Position numbers and translations under genes: made by a program
Notes under the pieces: model-generated
Told to the model about the DNA's origin: nothing
Seen by the model: the letters and a program-made list of their open reading frames with translations, nothing else
Database searches by the model: none
In this document: piece by piece, positions 2,995 to 18,379 of the stretch
Layout of the letters: the number at the start of each line of letters is the position of its first letter
Numbering within the stretch: the first letter of the stretch is position 1
Origin: a bacterium
Lineage (GTDB): Bacteria; Pseudomonadota; Gammaproteobacteria; GCA-002705445; GCA-002716945
Reading direction: 5' to 3'
NCBI GenBank assembly: GCA_029979505.1
Contig: JAPOHH010000006.1
Span: 1,237-65,236, forward strand
Length of the DNA stretch: 64,000 bases

Positions 2995-3213
2995 ATGAGA
3001 CATTTTAAACTTCTATCTGTACTGTTACTTACAGGAATTATCACTGCATGCGGTGGTGGAACATCTGCTCCATCAGAATATATGGTGAAAGTTTACCCAA
3101 TTGAAAATGATTTCGATCGTTTCGAAGAAGTTGGTCCTGTATCATCTCGCGATGCATGTACAGCTAAGGCTATGGAAATGAAAGCAGCAGCTTACGAATG
3201 CCAGCCTAAATAA
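2995..3213 (+). CDS. Small predicted lipoprotein, unknown function
   Basis: Signal peptide ending in lipobox ITAC; SD-like AAGGGGG upstream; own terminator downstream. Confidence 0.7.
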   Translation: MRHFKLLSVLLLTGIITACGGGTSAPSEYMVKVYPIENDFDRFEEVGPVSSRDACTAKAMEMKAAAYECQPK

Positions 3214-12047: not shown

Positions 12048-12089
12048 ATATGTGACTGATGTAGTCAGAAGATGTTATAATTCAGCACA

Positions 12090-14783
12090 ATGAAGTTAAT
12101 CAGTTATCTTAAAGTACTACCTTTTTTAATTCTTGCACTAGCATCCATAAATACTAGTGCAAGCACAAATGGTTTTTTTAGTTCAATATCATCATATGTA
12201 GAAAAAACTCTCACTGAACACAGTGTAAAGCCATTTGTTATAGCTATCGAACAAGGCAAGCTAATAAGTGATGATAAGCTGAATAAAATCGACACAGGCT
12301 TGTCTAAAGAGCAAGTTCTATACCTACTTGGTAAACCATCTTTATCAAGTCCTTTTTTATCTGATCAGTGGAATTATCTATATTTTAACAACACAAATCA
12401 AAAAGAAGTAAGGAAACTTACTATTCATTTTAAAAATGAAAAGGTTTATGAAGTTCTAGTTCAAAATGAAATCTATAAAAAAGTTGGATTGAAAATTACT
12501 GAAGCACCATCACTAAACAATGGACCTATCTATGTGCAAGAGTTAAATGCTGAGGATGATATCAAACCTATAGTATTAACTGTAGAGAATAATATGACAT
12601 CAAAAAATGTAGCAGATGTCTGTAATGTTAATGATTTCCAAACATTTGCGGATGTAAGAACATTGTATGATAGTGATGATACAACGCTAGAAATAAGAGC
12701 TGATAATCAGAGTCAAATTGAAAGTGAATTTAAAGCAGAAGGAAATGCTGAAGCGGAAAGAGAAAAGGATCTCTTAAGAGCTGATACAATAATTTATAAT
12801 ACATCTAATAAAAATCTATCAGCATCTGGAAATGTAAAATATTTCGAACAAGACATATCAGTTTATTCAAAAAACGCAAACTACTTAAGCAGTAAAAATG
12901 AAATTAACTTTTCTAAGGCTAAATATTACTTATCTGATAAAAGTGGCTCGGGTAATGCGGATGATATTCTTATTAAAGGTAACAAAGATATAATTTTGAA
13001 AGATGGAACATTTACTTCATGTAGTATCGCTGATCCAGACTGGGAGCTTACATCAACAACTACAACACTGTACAATGATATAGACAGGGGTCATTCTTAT
13101 AATATGTTGCTTAAATATAAAAATGTTCCTGTATTCTACTCACCATTTATAAGTTTTCCGTTATCAGATGATAGACAATCCGGTATATTAACACCCTCTT
13201 TTGGATCCGCTGGAGATAGTGGAACATATTTTTCCGTTCCATATTATTTTAACCTTGCAAAAAATTATGACTTAACTGTTGAAGTAAAATCACTGAGTGA
13301 TCGTGGGATTTTTATTGATAATGAATTTAGATACCTAGGTTCCAAAGGCTCATCGCTGATCAATTTTACACATTTAGAAAATGATGATGAATTTGGTGAT
13401 GACAGATATTTATATTCACTGAATGATAAAAGGAGTTTAATAGATACCTTAAATAGATCAGGACAATCAACTAATGGAATGACATTGAATACTAATATTT
13501 CATATAGCCGAGTGTCAGATATAGATTATTTCGATGACTTTGGGAATTCTTTGAGTACGGCAAGTCAATCAAGCGTAAAAAGAGACCTAAGAATATTCGG
13601 AGCAAAATATCTAAATAATAACAAACTGAATTATGAAATATCTTCGGTTACATATCAGCCATCGCAATCGGGAGTTTCAGAACAGTATGAAACCAGTCCA
13701 TCAATACTGCTTAACTATAATAATATTGAGACTAATGAAAGATATATATATAGCATCAAAACCAGATTTGATGAATTTAAGCATAAAGATAATTCAAAAG
13801 TTGAGGGAAGTAGGTATGTACTTTATCCAAGTTTGCAAATGCCTATAATTAGAGAAGGTTGGGAGTTGCATCCTAAACTAGGAATTAGATATATTGATTA
13901 CAGTCTAAATAATAGCTCGAATAGTTCATCATCTAAAACTACACCAATTGCTAGTCTGAGAGGTAAATTATATTTTGATAAACAGATTGGAGACAGATTA
14001 TATACAATGGAACCAGAAGCATATCTATTATATGTTCCTGTGGGGAATCAAGACAATAATCCTATTTTTGATAGTGGACTAAAAGAATTTAAATATTCAC
14101 TATTTTCTGAGAATCAGTTTTACGGGGAAGACAGGCTTAACGATGCTAAACAATTAGCTTTAGCTTTAACGCACAGAATAATTGATGAAGACTCTGGTAA
14201 TGAACTTTTTACTGGTACAATCGGACAGATATTATACTTTGACGATCGAGATGTTCATTTAACATCTGGAACCAAAAAACACTCTGACGCATCAAATATA
14301 ATTGGTTTAGTTAGTGCACAAATTAGTGAAAAAAGTCTTCTATCACTTGGTTCTGTTTTTAATCCTCATGCCGGACATGGAATGAGGAGTGCATTTAGAT
14401 ACCGTTACAACAACAGCACAGGCTTTAGAAATAAAATCTTTAACGCTGATTATAGATTTATTAGAGGTGATGAAGAAGAAATAGATTTATCTGGTGTTTA
14501 TTCTTTTAATAGGAACTTATCGGTTGTTGGAAAATTTAATTATTCATTCTCAAATAATAGAGCCAATGCAGAAGATTTAATTGATACCATGTTTGGTATT
14601 GAAATGAATAGCTGCTGCTATGCTATGAAAATAGTTGCGAGAGACTACTGGACTGGTACAAAAAAAGATAATATTTTATATTTTGAATTTTTACCAAAAG
14701 GATTAACAACAACAAACAACAGCACAGCGTCGCTTCTCAGAGAGGGTATACCTGGCTATGAGGATAAAACCAAATATGAATAA
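12090..14783 (+). CDS. lptD: LPS assembly protein LptD carrying an extra N-terminal BamE/SmpA-like domain
   Basis: aa 47-122 resemble SmpA/OmlA; remainder LptD: FTSCS..W, RQSGILTP, PYYFNLAKNYD, terminal SCCY Cys pair; first gene before surA-pdxA-rsmA. Confidence 0.88.
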   Translation: MKLISYLKVLPFLILALASINTSASTNGFFSSISSYVEKTLTEHSVKPFVIAIEQGKLISDDKLNKIDTGLSKEQVLYLLGKPSLSSPFLSDQWNYLYFNNTNQKEVRKLTIHFKNEKVYEVLVQNEIYKKVGLKITEAPSLNNGPIYVQELNAEDDIKPIVLTVENNMTSKNVADVCNVNDFQTFADVRTLYDSDDTTLEIRADNQSQIESEFKAEGNAEAEREKDLLRADTIIYNTSNKNLSASGNVKYFEQDISVYSKNANYLSSKNEINFSKAKYYLSDKSGSGNADDILIKGNKDIILKDGTFTSCSIADPDWELTSTTTTLYNDIDRGHSYNMLLKYKNVPVFYSPFISFPLSDDRQSGILTPSFGSAGDSGTYFSVPYYFNLAKNYDLTVEVKSLSDRGIFIDNEFRYLGSKGSSLINFTHLENDDEFGDDRYLYSLNDKRSLIDTLNRSGQSTNGMTLNTNISYSRVSDIDYFDDFGNSLSTASQSSVKRDLRIFGAKYLNNNKLNYEISSVTYQPSQSGVSEQYETSPSILLNYNNIETNERYIYSIKTRFDEFKHKDNSKVEGSRYVLYPSLQMPIIREGWELHPKLGIRYIDYSLNNSSNSSSSKTTPIASLRGKLYFDKQIGDRLYTMEPEAYLLYVPVGNQDNNPIFDSGLKEFKYSLFSENQFYGEDRLNDAKQLALALTHRIIDEDSGNELFTGTIGQILYFDDRDVHLTSGTKKHSDASNIIGLVSAQISEKSLLSLGSVFNPHAGHGMRSAFRYRYNNSTGFRNKIFNADYRFIRGDEEEIDLSGVYSFNRNLSVVGKFNYSFSNNRANAEDLIDTMFGIEMNSCCYAMKIVARDYWTGTKKDNILYFEFLPKGLTTTNNSTASLLREGIPGYEDKTKYE

Positions 14784-15996
14784 AAGTGTGTTGGTAACAT
14801 TATTATTTATGCTTACTCTAAGCATTGAGTCTTTCTCATATGAGGATAAGATTATTGCAATTGTAAACGATAATGTAGTTCTTGAGTCAGAACTTGCTGA
14901 GAAGCTTGATTCCATAAATTCACAGAATATGAATAAACTACAGTTAACTAAACTAAGAAATGATGTATTAGGTAAATTGATAGAGGAATCTTTATTAGAA
15001 CAGGCTGCAAACAGATTAGGAATAAATATCTCAGATATAGATTTGAGAAATGCAGTAAAACAGATTGCTCAAAGTCAGAACTTAACAGTGCTTCAACTTA
15101 AAGATGCGGTGGAAGCACAAAATATAAGCTACCCAAAATATCTGGATAATCTTAGAAAAAAAATACAAATTCAAGAACTATTTAGAACTCAATTCACTAG
15201 CAGAGCATATATATCTGAAGAAGAACTAAAAAGTTACTTGAAGAATAATAATCGGACAAATGAGATAGATGCTAAAATCAACCTTACCGAATATCTCATA
15301 GAAGATGAAGATAATAGAATAGATTCTGCAAAGATAGATATTATTGTTAGAAGCCTAAAAGTTAATGGTTATGCAGATACTGAGAAAAGATATCCAAATT
15401 ATAAAATAGTTATTAATAATATGAAGGATGTTTTACTAAAAAATCTCCCTGATATATATCAAAGCAACTTAAAAATTCTAGATGCAAAAAAGTTTAGTAA
15501 TTTTTTTAGGACTGGAAAAGGATATGTCTTATTAAAGGTAGACAGTGATGATATTTTAGTAGAAGAATACAAAGTAAGTCATATATTATTGAAAACTAAT
15601 CCGATGGAAGATAATGAATATATAAAAAATAAACTCTATGAAATTAAGAATCAAGCAATAAAAAATAATGATTTCTCTGGTTATGCTAGAAAACACTCCC
15701 TGGATTCTGCTTCTGCGATAAAAGGCGGCTCATTGGGATGGATAGAAAAAAAATTAGTTGTACCAAAATTTGGATCTGTAATGGCGACTATAGCAATAGG
15801 AGAAATTAGCGAACCATTCAAAACTCAATATGGATGGCATATTTTGTATTTGGAAGACAAAAGAACTAGAAATATTACAGATAATTTAATTAGAAATAAA
15901 GCTGTTAGTGTACTTAAAGAAAGGAAGGTCAAAGTTGCAAAAAGGGAATGGTTGACAAAATTGAAAGATCAAGCATACATCGAAATTGTAGAATGA
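14776..15996 (+). CDS. surA: Periplasmic chaperone SurA
   Basis: DKIIAIVNDNVVLESEL N-domain; YKVSHILLK..FSGYARKHSLD..GGSLGW..PFKTQYGWHI parvulin domain; start placed at second Met. Confidence 0.88.
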   Translation: MNKSVLVTLLFMLTLSIESFSYEDKIIAIVNDNVVLESELAEKLDSINSQNMNKLQLTKLRNDVLGKLIEESLLEQAANRLGINISDIDLRNAVKQIAQSQNLTVLQLKDAVEAQNISYPKYLDNLRKKIQIQELFRTQFTSRAYISEEELKSYLKNNNRTNEIDAKINLTEYLIEDEDNRIDSAKIDIIVRSLKVNGYADTEKRYPNYKIVINNMKDVLLKNLPDIYQSNLKILDAKKFSNFFRTGKGYVLLKVDSDDILVEEYKVSHILLKTNPMEDNEYIKNKLYEIKNQAIKNNDFSGYARKHSLDSASAIKGGSLGWIEKKLVVPKFGSVMATIAIGEISEPFKTQYGWHILYLEDKRTRNITDNLIRNKAVSVLKERKVKVAKREWLTKLKDQAYIEIVE

Positions 15997-16973: not shown

Positions 16974-17727
16974 AAAGAAACTCGGCCAACACTTCTTGGT
17001 AGATCAGAACATAATAAATAAATTAGTAAAATATATTGCACCACATCAGAATGATATAGTTTTAGAAATAGGACCTGGTGATGGCGCATTGTCTAAAGCA
17101 ATTATTCCATTAATAAGAAAGTTTTATCTTATAGAAAAAGATAAGGACTTATTAAACGAACTTAATTTTCTTTTCGATGAAAACCCAAACGGAACAATTA
17201 TAAATTGTGATATTTTAGGATTTGACTTTTCATCTATACAGGAGAAGTTAAGGGTGATAGGTAATCTTCCTTACAACATATCAACAGAAATAATTTTCAT
17301 GATATGTAAAATTAGAAATATTACAGATATACATTTTATGTTACAAAAAGAAGTTGTAGACCGAATAATCTCAAATCCTAATACTAAAACTTATGGAAGA
17401 CTAAGTGTGATGACACAAGCCTACTTTTATACTACCAAGCTGTTTGATATTTCAGAAAATGTTTTTATGCCTAAGCCAAAAGTAAAATCATCATTCATAA
17501 GATTATTACCTAAAGAATTTATTTTTGATGATAATTATCATGAGAAAATATTTTATAATATTGTAAAAAAGGCTTTTGAAGGGAGAAGAAAAATGATTAG
17601 AAGCTCGCTTAATGAATATTTTAATGAAAAAGATTTTGATATTATCCAAATTGATGCTAAAAAAAGAGCAGAAAATCTTAATATTGATGATTATCTGCTT
17701 CTTAGTCGTTATGTTAATAAAAATTAG
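16963..17727 (+). CDS. rsmA: 16S rRNA m6,2A dimethyltransferase
   Basis: KKLGQHFL, EIGPGDG, GNLPYNIST, FMLQKEV, YGRLSV. Confidence 0.95.
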   Translation: MHHKKKLGQHFLVDQNIINKLVKYIAPHQNDIVLEIGPGDGALSKAIIPLIRKFYLIEKDKDLLNELNFLFDENPNGTIINCDILGFDFSSIQEKLRVIGNLPYNISTEIIFMICKIRNITDIHFMLQKEVVDRIISNPNTKTYGRLSVMTQAYFYTTKLFDISENVFMPKPKVKSSFIRLLPKEFIFDDNYHEKIFYNIVKKAFEGRRKMIRSSLNEYFNEKDFDIIQIDAKKRAENLNIDDYLLLSRYVNKN

Positions 17728-18379
17728 TACTTTTATATTATTCTATAATTTCTTATATCATTATTTTGATTTTTTTATGTGGTATCTTAGTGATAACCAG
17801 ATTCAAATTGAGTATGCATTCCAAAAAGGTTCATTAGCTTTTATAGCTATGTTGTTTTTTATAATCTTCACCCACATCGCTTTTTTCCCAAAACAACTTA
17901 TTGATGCTCCTAAAATAAAAACATTTCCTCCATTGATAATGCTTTTTTCAATGAATTTAGGATTTGGAATTGGAATATATAATCTGTATGTATCTCAATT
18001 ATATTCTCTTCCGAACTTTCTTGACTATTTAAGATCGAGAGAATTAGGCATAGCATTGATATTATCATCTTTTATGCTTATTTATTTTTCAGTTAAGCTA
18101 TTTAAACACCATCAAGAAGATCCAAATCCAACTAATAAATCAAATAAACTTATTACGAGTGGAATTTTCAAACATATTAGAAATCCAATGTATCTGTCAC
18201 TGATATGTTTTCAATTAGGTATAGGCGCTTTACTAAGCTTCATTCATATTAGCTTATTTTCAATAATAACATTCTGTATCTTACATTTTCATATAGTTAA
18301 AAATGAAGAAACTTATTTAAGAAAAAAATTTGGTGAGCACTATATTTTATATATGAAGAGTTCAAGAAGATGGATTTGA
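17711..18379 (+). CDS. Isoprenylcysteine carboxyl methyltransferase / PEMT-like membrane protein (start uncertain, 17711 or 17777)
   Basis: LITSGIFKHIRNPMY and [25 protein letters not shown]-terminal motifs; multiple TM segments. Confidence 0.75.
   Translation: MLIKISTFILFYNFLYHYFDFFMWYLSDNQIQIEYAFQKGSLAFIAMLFFIIFTHIAFFPKQLIDAPKIKTFPPLIMLFSMNLGFGIGIYNLYVSQLYSLPNFLDYLRSRELGIALILSSFMLIYFSVKLFKHHQEDPNPTNKSNKLITSGIFKHIRNPMYLSLICFQLGIGALLSFIHISLFSIITFCILHFHIVKNEETYLRKKFGEHYILYMKSSRRWI

What the first reader, a model, noticed from the sequence alone, without database searches (positions are those of the whole stretch)
12090..14783. BamE-like domain fused to the N-terminus of LptD
Seen: one 897-aa ORF. 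aa 47-122 (nt about 12228-12455, IEQGKLIS..GLSKEQVLYLLGKPSLSSPF.SDQWNY) match SmpA/OmlA/BamE, then a linker, then LptD with Cys at the expected positions. The signal peptide has no lipobox Cys. Established: BamE is normally a separate lipoprotein of the BAM complex, and LptD is a slow-folding BAM substrate that depends on SurA, the next gene. Inference: a physical link between the BAM and LPT machines, or a built-in assembly/lipid-binding domain in a streamlined envelope.
Basis: partly seen in the sequence, partly recalled or inferred. Interest (0 to 1): 0.66.

Follow-up and report, generated by a model that had tools for sequence, protein, structure and literature searches.

The report
LptD with built-in, lipid-free BamE
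In a whole order of tiny-genome marine sulfur-oxidising bacteria, the small helper protein BamE of the outer-membrane protein-folding machine is no longer a separate lipoprotein but is fused, without its lipid anchor, to the front of LptD, the pore that inserts lipopolysaccharide. This points to a direct link between the two machines that build the outer membrane.

Summary
ORF 12090-14783 (+) encodes an 897-aa protein with five parts:
- a type-I signal peptide without a lipobox;
- a BamE domain (Pfam PF04355, 56 bits against a cut-off of 23; the AF2 model hits BamE structures);
- a roughly 50-aa low-confidence tether;
- the LptD jellyroll;
- the LptD barrel, with the four conserved LptD cysteines.

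It is not an assembly artefact. 34 of 37 genomes of the order (6 genera) carry exactly one BamE match, and 30 of the 35 matches lie in open frames of about 860-956 aa. The 120 best-scoring protein clusters listed from public assemblies all have both domains.

No separate bamE exists in this genome. Its usual site between rnfH/ratB and fur is empty, while BamA, BamB, BamC, BamD, Skp and SurA are all present. In the listed BamE and LptD matches from a sample of about 300 other Gammaproteobacteria, the two are on different contigs or far apart.

The BamE domain is as conserved as the LptD jellyroll and keeps 15 of 19 signature positions of stand-alone BamE. The tether keeps its length but not its sequence.

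Most likely LptD replaces the lipid as BamE's membrane anchor and the domain still docks on BamA/BamD. That step is inferred, not shown. No paper found describes this fusion. It is a new variant of known parts.

The parts
12090..14783 (+). Whole bamE-lptD fusion gene (897 aa plus stop)
12090..12164 (+). Signal peptide, aa 1-25. It is type I (..TSA|S) with no Cys and no lipobox.
   Evidence: Sequence. There is no Cys before aa 178. 57 of 59 homologues have no Cys in their first 45 aa, and the other two have a mid-h-region LAAC. KD(15) maximum is 2.2.
12165..12227 (+). Acidic, weakly amphipathic pre-domain segment, aa 26-46. It is a predicted helix that stand-alone BamE lacks.
   Evidence: AF2 helix at aa 26-43 with low pLDDT. 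muH is 0.2-0.5 and mean pairwise identity 0.34. Compared with stand-alone BamE.
12228..12482 (+). BamE domain, aa 47-131 (Pfam core aa 56-119). It has the alpha-alpha-beta-beta-beta fold plus a conserved extra beta-hairpin (aa 118-131).
   Evidence: Pfam 56.3 bits. PDB sequence hits to BamE. AF2 pLDDT 66-86. Foldseek top hits are all BamE. 15 of 19 BamE signature positions are kept.
12483..12620 (+). Tether, aa 132-177. It is low-confidence, variable in sequence and conserved in length.
   Evidence: pLDDT 31-43. Identity 0.26. The distance from FKNE to the first Cys is 63-68 aa in 56 clade-1 proteins and 65-66 aa in 4 clade-2 proteins.
12621..13079 (+). LptD N-terminal beta-jellyroll, aa 178-330, starting at invariant Cys178 and containing invariant Cys311
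   Evidence: Pfam LptD_N. AF2 pLDDT 76-87 and Foldseek hits to LptA and LptD. Invariant Cys residues.
13080..14780 (+). LptD beta-barrel, aa 331-897, with the invariant Cys842-Cys843 pair (nt 14613-14618)
   Evidence: Pfam LptD 2.8e-52. PDB LptD 4e-62. Foldseek to LptD structures 1e-25.
14758..15996 (+). surA. Its start overlaps the lptD end by 26 nt. It begins the conserved lptD-surA-pdxA-rsmA operon.
   Evidence: Pfam families of the syntenic gene in L014
11403..12047 (+). adk, the conserved upstream neighbour, separated from the fusion gene by a 42-nt spacer

Best explanation
Shown:
- This is a real gene fusion present across all six genera of one order, consistent with vertical inheritance.
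- The stand-alone lipoprotein gene bamE has disappeared from its usual site between rnfH/ratB and fur.
- The only BamE of these roughly 1-Mb genomes is a domain without a lipid anchor. It is exported behind a type-I signal peptide.
- A length-conserved tether of about 50 residues joins it to the first conserved cysteine of LptD.

Inferred:
- In E. coli that cysteine is disulfide-bonded to the periplasmic rim of the barrel. [quoted passage not shown]
- LptD thus takes the place of the lipid as BamE's membrane anchor.
- The domain most likely still binds the BamA-POTRA5/BamD junction, as BamE does.
- During biogenesis the BamE domain is the first part of the chain to reach the periplasm. It would dock the slow-folding, 26-stranded LptD onto BAM in cis.
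- After release it could keep the finished LptDE translocon next to a BAM complex and supply that complex with its BamE subunit.
For: The fusion is real and conserved:
- 34 of 37 genomes of the order have one BamE match (one has two).
- 30 of the 35 matches lie in frames of about 860-956 aa. The other five frames are only 145-263 aa.
- The 120 best protein clusters, down to 58% identity, all carry PF04453 plus PF04355.
- Synteny is identical on a 1.2-Mb contig at 62% identity.
- Two divergent subclades, 43% identical, both carry the fusion.

It is the only BamE:
- The own genome has one match.
- rnfH and fur abut with no gap at G000:C8:70253-70990. Outgroup G181 has a lipobox bamE between them.

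The domain is BamE:
- Pfam scores 56 bits.
- BamE chains score better than TpgA in NCBIfam and in the PDB.
- Foldseek's top 3 and most of its top 28 hits are BamE, with TMt about 0.6-0.7.
- 15 of 19 signature positions of 86 stand-alone BamEs are kept, and the conservation profiles correlate (rho 0.54).
- Core positions whose mutation sensitises E. coli to vancomycin are retained.

Selection:
- Mean pairwise identity is 0.59 for the BamE domain, 0.60 for the jellyroll and 0.26 for the tether.
- Tether length is constant.

Partners are present:
- BamD, BamB and BamC are lipobox lipoproteins.
- BamA and Skp lie in the canonical rseP-bamA-skp-lpxD cluster. This rests on gene order and a by-eye VRGF motif, without an HMM check.
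- LptE is in 34 of 37 genomes of the order.

A C-terminal extension of BamE is tolerated. The standard BAM expression plasmid pJH114 carries a C-terminal His tag on BamE (PMC13048289).
Against: - No binding test was possible. AF2 monomer models give no inter-domain or inter-protein contacts, and the full-length model is poor (pTM 0.36).
- Three conserved surface positions differ from stand-alone BamE: N36 to R/K, D66 to S, R72 to Q.
- The NCBIfam BamE equivalog cut-off is not reached (39 against 93 bits).
- BamE is dispensable in E. coli, and 19 of 300 sampled Gammaproteobacteria lack it. Loss of the BAM role would therefore be tolerable.
- BamE-fold domains can bind other barrels. TpgA-N binds the AtaA barrel (9vnj).
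- If LptD is much rarer than BamA, most BAM complexes would lack BamE.
Confidence: 0.55

Rival explanations
1. Repurposed module. The BamE fold no longer serves BAM. It has become an LptD-specific periplasmic domain. It might bind LptD's own barrel rim, LptE, or the jellyroll edge, acting as a cap, an assembly clamp or an LptM-like stabiliser. It might instead bind phosphatidylglycerol or peptidoglycan. BamE function proper would then have been lost in this order.
For: - The lipid anchor is lost.
- There are family-specific surface switches at N36, D66 and R72, and fused-only conserved positions.
- There is a precedent for a BamE-like domain binding a non-BAM barrel: TpgA-N with AtaA (9vnj, best rmsd 2.9 A).
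- BamE is absent from 19 of 300 sampled Gammaproteobacteria.
- The length-conserved tether would also fit a fixed intramolecular docking site.
Against: - The domain scores better against BamE than against TpgA.
- It keeps 15 of 19 BamE signature positions. The conserved stretches lie in the N-terminal PY..QG motif and in beta1/beta2. These are the regions that the TpgA paper, citing Kumar and Konovalova 2023, names as the BamA/BamD interface.
- BamB, BamC and BamD are all retained, so there is no sign that BAM is being simplified.
Confidence: 0.3
2. Polyprotein. The fusion only serves co-expression and co-export. A periplasmic protease cuts the tether and releases a soluble, non-lipidated BamE that joins BAM on its own, plus an ordinary LptD.
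For: - The tether is predicted with low confidence, is variable in sequence and would be accessible to proteases.
- Other LptD fusions noted in this scan were read as cleaved polyproteins.
Against: - There is no internal signal peptide or recognisable cleavage motif.
- A constant tether length across two clades that are only about 21-26% identical in this stretch is not expected for a mere cleavable spacer.
- A released BamE would have neither a lipid nor any other anchor.
Confidence: 0.1
3. Artefact. A frameshift, a missed stop or a chimeric assembly joined two separate genes.
For: None found.
Against: - The same uninterrupted frame occurs in most of the 34 BamE-positive genomes of 6 genera (30 of 35 matches).
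- It also occurs in hundreds of independently assembled metagenome contigs from JGI, ENA, NCBI, Tara and Logan, and on a 1.2-Mb contig.
- The LptD part has no signal peptide of its own.
Confidence: 0.01

Closest known systems
BamE (SmpA/OmlA), the lipoprotein subunit of the beta-barrel assembly machine (E. coli BamE in 5D0O chain E; N. gonorrhoeae 5WAM; Xanthomonas OmlA 2PXG)
   Same: - It has the same Pfam family and fold.
- The PY..I.QG motif is kept, as are the G-[ML]-[ST]..Q and LG.P...PF...W.Y.Y signature and the F of beta2.
- It is the only BamE-type sequence in the genome.
   Different: - It has no lipobox and no lipid anchor.
- It is not a separate protein of about 110 aa. It is covalently joined at its C-terminus to LptD.
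- It has an extra acidic N-terminal segment and an extra beta-hairpin.
- Surface positions N36, D66 and R72 are changed.
- It is absent from the usual rnfH/ratB-fur site.
LptD (Imp/OstA), the outer-membrane LPS translocon with LptE (for example 4Q35, 5IV9, 7OMM)
   Same: - It has a jellyroll plus a barrel.
- The four Cys residues are at equivalent positions.
- The lptD-surA-pdxA-rsmA operon is the same.
- LptE is present in the order.
   Different: About 150 extra residues lie between the signal peptide and the first Cys. They comprise the pre-helix, the BamE domain and the tether.
TpgA N-terminal SmpA/OmlA-like domain bound to the barrel of the trimeric autotransporter AtaA (9VNJ; PMC12523085)
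   Same: It is a non-lipidated BamE-fold domain working as part of a larger protein at the periplasmic face of an outer-membrane barrel. It is also a close structural match (rmsd 2.9 A).
   Different: - The sequence match is weaker than to BamE (NCBIfam 21.6 bits against a cut-off of 350; PDB 22 bits against 30-37 bits for BamE).
- There is no OmpA_C domain.
- TpgA coexists with a normal BamE, whereas here no other BamE exists.
N-terminal extensions of LptD in other Gammaproteobacteria (P. aeruginosa LptD, 924 aa, 8H1R; outgroup genome G181 with a Pro/Ala-rich extension)
   Same: Extra sequence sits between the signal peptide and the jellyroll.
   Different: In G181 the extension is a Pro/Ala-rich, low-complexity stretch, and a separate lipobox bamE lies at the fur locus. 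In the other sampled genomes the only listed BamE match lies elsewhere than lptD. The P. aeruginosa extension itself was not scanned here.

Membership tests
BamE / SmpA_OmlA (PF04355) | Matches the family HMM above the curated gathering score | tested here: met
   56.3 bits against 23.2, E = 2.8e-15, profile positions 1-66 of 71. 60 bits in the six-frame genome search.
BamE / SmpA_OmlA (PF04355) | alpha-alpha-beta-beta-beta two-layer fold | tested here: met
   AF2 elements H38-42, H50-57, E70-76, E84-92 and E95-101 with pLDDT 66-86. Foldseek hits 5wam_B at 1.7e-6 and E. coli BAM chain E with TMt 0.62-0.70.
BamE / SmpA_OmlA (PF04355) | Signature residues of stand-alone BamE | tested here: met
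   15 of 19 positions conserved in 86 stand-alone BamEs carry the same residue. N36, M50 (now L), D66 and R72 differ.
BamE as BAM lipoprotein subunit | N-terminal lipobox Cys (lipoprotein) | tested here: not met
   There is no Cys in aa 1-177. 57 of 59 homologues have no Cys in their first 45 aa. The closest stand-alone BamEs read by eye carry a lipobox, and 86 more passed a regex filter.
BamE as BAM lipoprotein subunit | NCBIfam equivalog score (PRK11548) | tested here: not met
   39.3 bits against a cut-off of 93
BamE as BAM lipoprotein subunit | Binds BamA POTRA5 and BamD | not testable with these tools
   Only monomer prediction is available. The partners BamD, BamA, BamB and BamC are encoded.
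LptD (PF04453 + PF03968) | Matches the LptD and LptD_N HMMs above the gathering scores | tested here: met
   178.8 bits against 22.4, and 21.5 bits against 20.4. PDB LptD chains match at 4e-62.
LptD (PF04453 + PF03968) | NCBIfam LptD equivalog cut-offs | tested here: inconclusive
   290 bits against 944, and 280 bits against 683, over aa 188-892. This is full-length homology below clade-specific trusted cut-offs. The lineage is divergent and AT-rich.
LptD (PF04453 + PF03968) | Two N-terminal Cys residues plus a C-terminal Cys-Cys pair for the inter-domain disulfides | tested here: met
   C178, C311, C842 and C843, invariant in 59 sequences
LptD (PF04453 + PF03968) | LptE partner encoded | tested here: inconclusive
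   PF04390 is absent from G000, but leuS is missing too, which indicates an assembly gap. LptE is present in 34 of 37 genomes of the order.
LptD (PF04453 + PF03968) | lptD-surA-pdxA-rsmA gene order | tested here: met
TpgA-like SmpA/OmlA-OmpA_C proteins | NCBIfam TpgA model and a C-terminal OmpA_C domain | tested here: not met
   21.6 bits against 350. There is no OmpA_C domain.

The most novel reading that the evidence does not exclude
The tethered BamE domain stays bound to BamA/BamD after LptD is released. These cells would then run a covalently coupled BAM-LptDE supercomplex. Protein and LPS insertion into the outer membrane would be spatially locked together, and BAM would receive its BamE subunit only through LptD. 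By Rosetta-stone logic, the fusion would also predict a so far unnoticed direct BamE-LptD contact during LptD assembly in ordinary bacteria such as E. coli.
Probability: 0.25. Interest if true: 0.8.

Novelty: new variant of a known kind. Interest (0 to 1): 0.6.

Why it matters
BAM and Lpt are the two essential machines that build the Gram-negative outer membrane, and both are antibiotic targets. How their activities are coordinated in space is an open question.

This natural fusion is kept across a whole order, and it replaces the separate bamE gene. It is a ready-made genetic argument that BamE and LptD work next to each other. It also shows that BamE can do without its lipid anchor if it is tethered near the membrane.

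It gives clear experiments that can be done in E. coli K-12:
- Test whether a lipid-free BamE fused to LptD complements delta-bamE.
- Test whether that fusion drags BAM and LptDE into one complex.

It also matters for annotation. In these genomes bamE would be scored as missing, and LptD as unusually long.

Tried and rejected
- **Read mapping across the junction.** I used independent assemblies instead.
- **LptE replaced by the BamE domain.** Rejected. LptE is missing from this assembly only because the leuS-lptE region is not assembled. It is present in 34 of 37 genomes of the order. A candidate 166-aa lipoprotein turned out to lie behind ORFs that look like soxXYZA by eye, not beside leuS.
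- **Fusion by read-through of adjacent genes.** Not supported. In the listed matches from a sample of about 300 Gammaproteobacteria, bamE and lptD are on different contigs or far apart. In outgroup G181, bamE sits at the fur locus.
- **The pre-domain helix as an amphipathic membrane anchor replacing the lipid.** Weak. It is acidic, with mean hydrophobicity near 0 and muH of only 0.2-0.5.
- **Internal signal peptide, as in the LptF-LptD and TatC-LptD fusions noted elsewhere in this scan.** None is present.
- **Full-length AF2 model.** It is of low quality (pLDDT 57.7, pTM 0.36). No coordinates or PAE are returned, so docking of the BamE domain could not be judged.
- **Interface residues of BamE.** The primary papers (Knowles 2011; Kumar and Konovalova 2023) are not held. 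I used the mutation table in PMC10135246 and a statement in PMC12523085.
- **Naming the organism.** The records only say 'MAG: Gammaproteobacteria bacterium'.
Full report
**1. Observation**

The window holds one uninterrupted ORF at 12090-14783 (+), 897 aa. The open frame extends only 3 codons upstream of the ATG (open frame 900).

Family matches:
- Pfam gives BamE (PF04355) at aa 56-119 (E = 2.8e-15; 56.3 bits, cut-off 23.2).
- Pfam gives LptD_N at aa 202-323.
- Pfam gives LptD at aa 458-807 (E = 2.8e-52).
- The NCBIfam LptD models align over aa 188-892, and the BamE model over aa 52-119.
- The first 200 residues hit solved BamE/OmlA chains by sequence (2pxg 2e-8; E. coli BamE about 2e-6).
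- The rest hits solved LptD chains (7omm 4e-62).

Other features:
- The N-terminus is a type-I signal peptide.
- There is no Cys before residue 178.
- The only cysteines are C178, C311, C842 and C843, and they are invariant in 59 homologues.
- Their spacing resembles that of C31, C173, C724 and C725 of E. coli LptD. I recalled the E. coli sequence from memory. That memory is consistent for BamE, where every residue in the published mutation list matched my recalled numbering.
- There is no hydrophobic stretch between aa 45 and 330, so there is no internal signal peptide.

**2. It is real and conserved**

- The window lies in a 917-kb, 15-contig genome that is 90% complete.
- Its GTDB order holds 37 species genomes in one family and six genera, all about 0.6-1.2 Mb.
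- 34 of the 37 have a BamE match. 33 have exactly one, and one fragmented assembly has two.
- 30 of the 35 matches lie in open frames of about 860-956 aa. The other five frames are short (145-263 aa), perhaps cut by contig ends, which I did not check.
- Among 5.8 billion public proteins, the 120 best clusters, down to 58% identity, all carry both Pfam domains and are about 840-905 aa long. They come from JGI, ENA, NCBI, Tara and Logan assemblies.
- A 1.2-Mb contig at 62% identity shows the same neighbourhood: mrdB, mrdA, H+-PPase, adk, the fusion, surA, pdxA, rsmA, a PEMT-like gene, clpB.
- The other genera carry a second, divergent form (43% identical overall) with a different pre-domain segment, and it is fused in the same way.

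An assembly artefact is excluded for practical purposes.

**3. It is the only BamE, and the old bamE site is empty**

- The own genome has no second BamE match. The only other hit scores 12 bits and contains a stop codon.
- Outgroup genome G181 has a lipobox BamE (..LVTGC|SSFPYKIDIQQGN..) between fur and an rnfH/ratB-like gene, next to ratA and recN. E. coli and Pseudomonas show the same general association. For Pseudomonas, see the omlA-fur reference cited.
- This genome has ratA, rnfH and fur at G000:C8:69862-70990. The rnfH stop codon is followed directly by the fur ATG, with no room for a gene.
- In a sample of about 300 genomes from about 230 families of the class, 281 have BamE.
- Only the roughly 150 best matches of each search are listed. 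Where both BamE and LptD were listed, they lie on different contigs or tens to hundreds of kb apart.
- The only fused cases in that sample are the two genomes of this family.
- Among the best 150 of 1,715 hits in 1.84 billion representative proteins, the only long proteins are the two forms of this fusion, plus one 639-aa fragment of it.

**4. The domain is a BamE, not just a BamE-like fold**

- An AF2 model of aa 24-200 gives the alpha-alpha-beta-beta-beta fold at pLDDT 66-86.
- Foldseek's best PDB matches are BamE from N. gonorrhoeae and chain E of E. coli BAM (TMt about 0.6-0.7). TpgA-N, OsmE and BLIP rank lower in E-value.
- I aligned the domain with 86 stand-alone BamEs that passed a lipobox filter. 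The fused family keeps 15 of the 19 positions conserved in those proteins: P27, Y28, Q34, G35, G49, Q54, V55, L59, G60, P62, F68, W73, Y75, Y77 and F95 (E. coli numbering).
- The conservation profiles of the two groups correlate (Spearman 0.54, p = 6e-7).
- Three polar surface positions are consistently different: N36 to R/K, D66 to S, R72 to Q.
- Most core positions whose substitution makes E. coli vancomycin-sensitive (Knowles 2011, as tabulated in PMC10135246) are identical or conservatively replaced.
- The best-conserved stretches are the N-terminal PY..I..QG motif and beta1/beta2. PMC12523085, citing Kumar and Konovalova 2023, names these as the BamA/BamD-binding parts of BamE.

**5. Selection and anatomy**

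Mean pairwise identity by region:

| Region | Mean pairwise identity |
|---|---|
| Signal peptide | 0.30 |
| Pre-domain segment | 0.34 |
| BamE domain | 0.59 |
| Tether | 0.26 |
| Jellyroll | 0.60 |
| Barrel | 0.69 |

- The BamE domain is therefore as constrained as an essential part of LptD.
- The tether is predicted with low confidence (pLDDT about 31-43), yet its length is fixed.
- The distance from the FKNE motif to the first Cys is 63-68 residues in 56 proteins of one clade and 65-66 in four of the other.
- Two additions are specific to the fused forms. One is an acidic helix of about 20 aa after the signal-peptide cleavage site. The other is a conserved extra beta-hairpin (aa 118-131).

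**6. Context**

- The genome keeps BamD (PF13525, 7e-59), BamB and BamC, all with classical lipoboxes. It also keeps an M48 lipoprotein.
- It keeps the canonical cdsA-dxr-rseP-bamA-skp-lpxD-fabZ-lpxA cluster (read by eye from gene order and the VRGF motif).
- It keeps SurA and an M48 protein that I read by eye as BepA-like, with no HMM check.
- Lipoprotein biogenesis evidently works. The loss of BamE's lipid is therefore specific to BamE and not a general loss.
- LptE was not found in this assembly. LeuS, its usual neighbour, is also missing, and LptE is present in 34 of 37 genomes of the order. This is an assembly gap.

**7. Mechanism**

Shown: the only BamE of the order is a lipid-free domain joined by a fixed-length tether to the first Cys of LptD.

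Inferred:
- In E. coli that Cys is disulfide-bonded to the Cys-Cys pair in the last periplasmic turn of the barrel. This is established knowledge and was not tested here.
[quoted passage not shown] That is the level at which BamE sits on BamA-POTRA5/BamD.
- LptD would thus replace the lipid as the anchor.
- BamE's C-terminus tolerates extensions. The standard BAM plasmid pJH114 carries a C-terminal His tag on BamE (PMC13048289).
- The domain may act only in cis while LptD folds on BAM, or it may stay bound and couple LptDE to BAM. These data cannot decide between the two.

Odds:
- About 0.55 that BAM binding is retained.
- About 0.3 that the fold was repurposed for an LptD-specific role, with TpgA-N bound to the AtaA barrel as a precedent (9vnj).
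- About 0.1 that the tether is cleaved.

**8. Novelty**

- Full-text searches for BamE together with LptD and fusion or domain-architecture terms found no description of this architecture.
- A recent cluster analysis of SmpA/OmlA-family architectures lists OmpA_C and DUF partners but no LptD (PMC12523085).
It is not independent evidence.
- The parts are known and the combination is not. I class it as a new variant of a known kind, of solid interest to outer-membrane biogenesis research.

Noticed in passing
window 14758-14783: The surA start codon lies 26 nt inside the end of the fusion gene. pdxA overlaps surA, and rsmA overlaps pdxA. The whole lptD-surA-pdxA-rsmA operon is tightly packed.
   Followed up: partly
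window 12048-12089: The 42-nt adk-lptD spacer holds an inverted repeat (TGACTGATGTAGTCA) and a promoter-like GTGACT-18-TATAAT with an extended TG. Its -10 element ends 9 nt before the ATG. There is no obvious Shine-Dalgarno sequence, so the mRNA may be short-leadered or leaderless. This is a consensus match only.
   Followed up: no
G000 whole genome (not in window): leuS and lptE are both absent from this 90%-complete assembly. Their shared locus is probably in an assembly gap.
   Followed up: yes
G000:C8:69862-70990 (not in window): ratA-rnfH(ratB)-fur, with the rnfH stop codon immediately followed by the fur ATG. This is the place where related Gammaproteobacteria keep bamE, and here it is cleanly empty.
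   Followed up: yes
window 2995-3213 (G000:C9:4231-4449): A 72-aa predicted lipoprotein (lipobox ITAC at Cys19) with three further Cys residues and no Pfam family.
   Followed up: partly
L010 5647-6147 (G000:C13:34646-35146): An orphan 166-aa lipoprotein with no Pfam family. It lies directly downstream of four small ORFs that look like soxXYZA by eye.
   Followed up: partly
window 17612-18379: A PEMT/ICMT-like membrane methyltransferase gene follows rsmA. It keeps this position in a relative that is 62% identical (L014 11646-12284).
   Followed up: no
P0089, P0092 (homologues, 62% and 61% identical): Two homologues with identical N-termini have LAAC in the middle of the signal-peptide h-region (Cys14). 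Their close relatives have L or F at that position. It is probably a chance lipobox look-alike.
   Followed up: partly
L015 1474-3999 (outgroup genome G181): The closest non-fused LptD in the class sample (36% identical) has an N-terminal extension of about 130 aa that is rich in Pro and Ala and of low complexity. LptD N-termini therefore accept insertions in other lineages too.
   Followed up: partly
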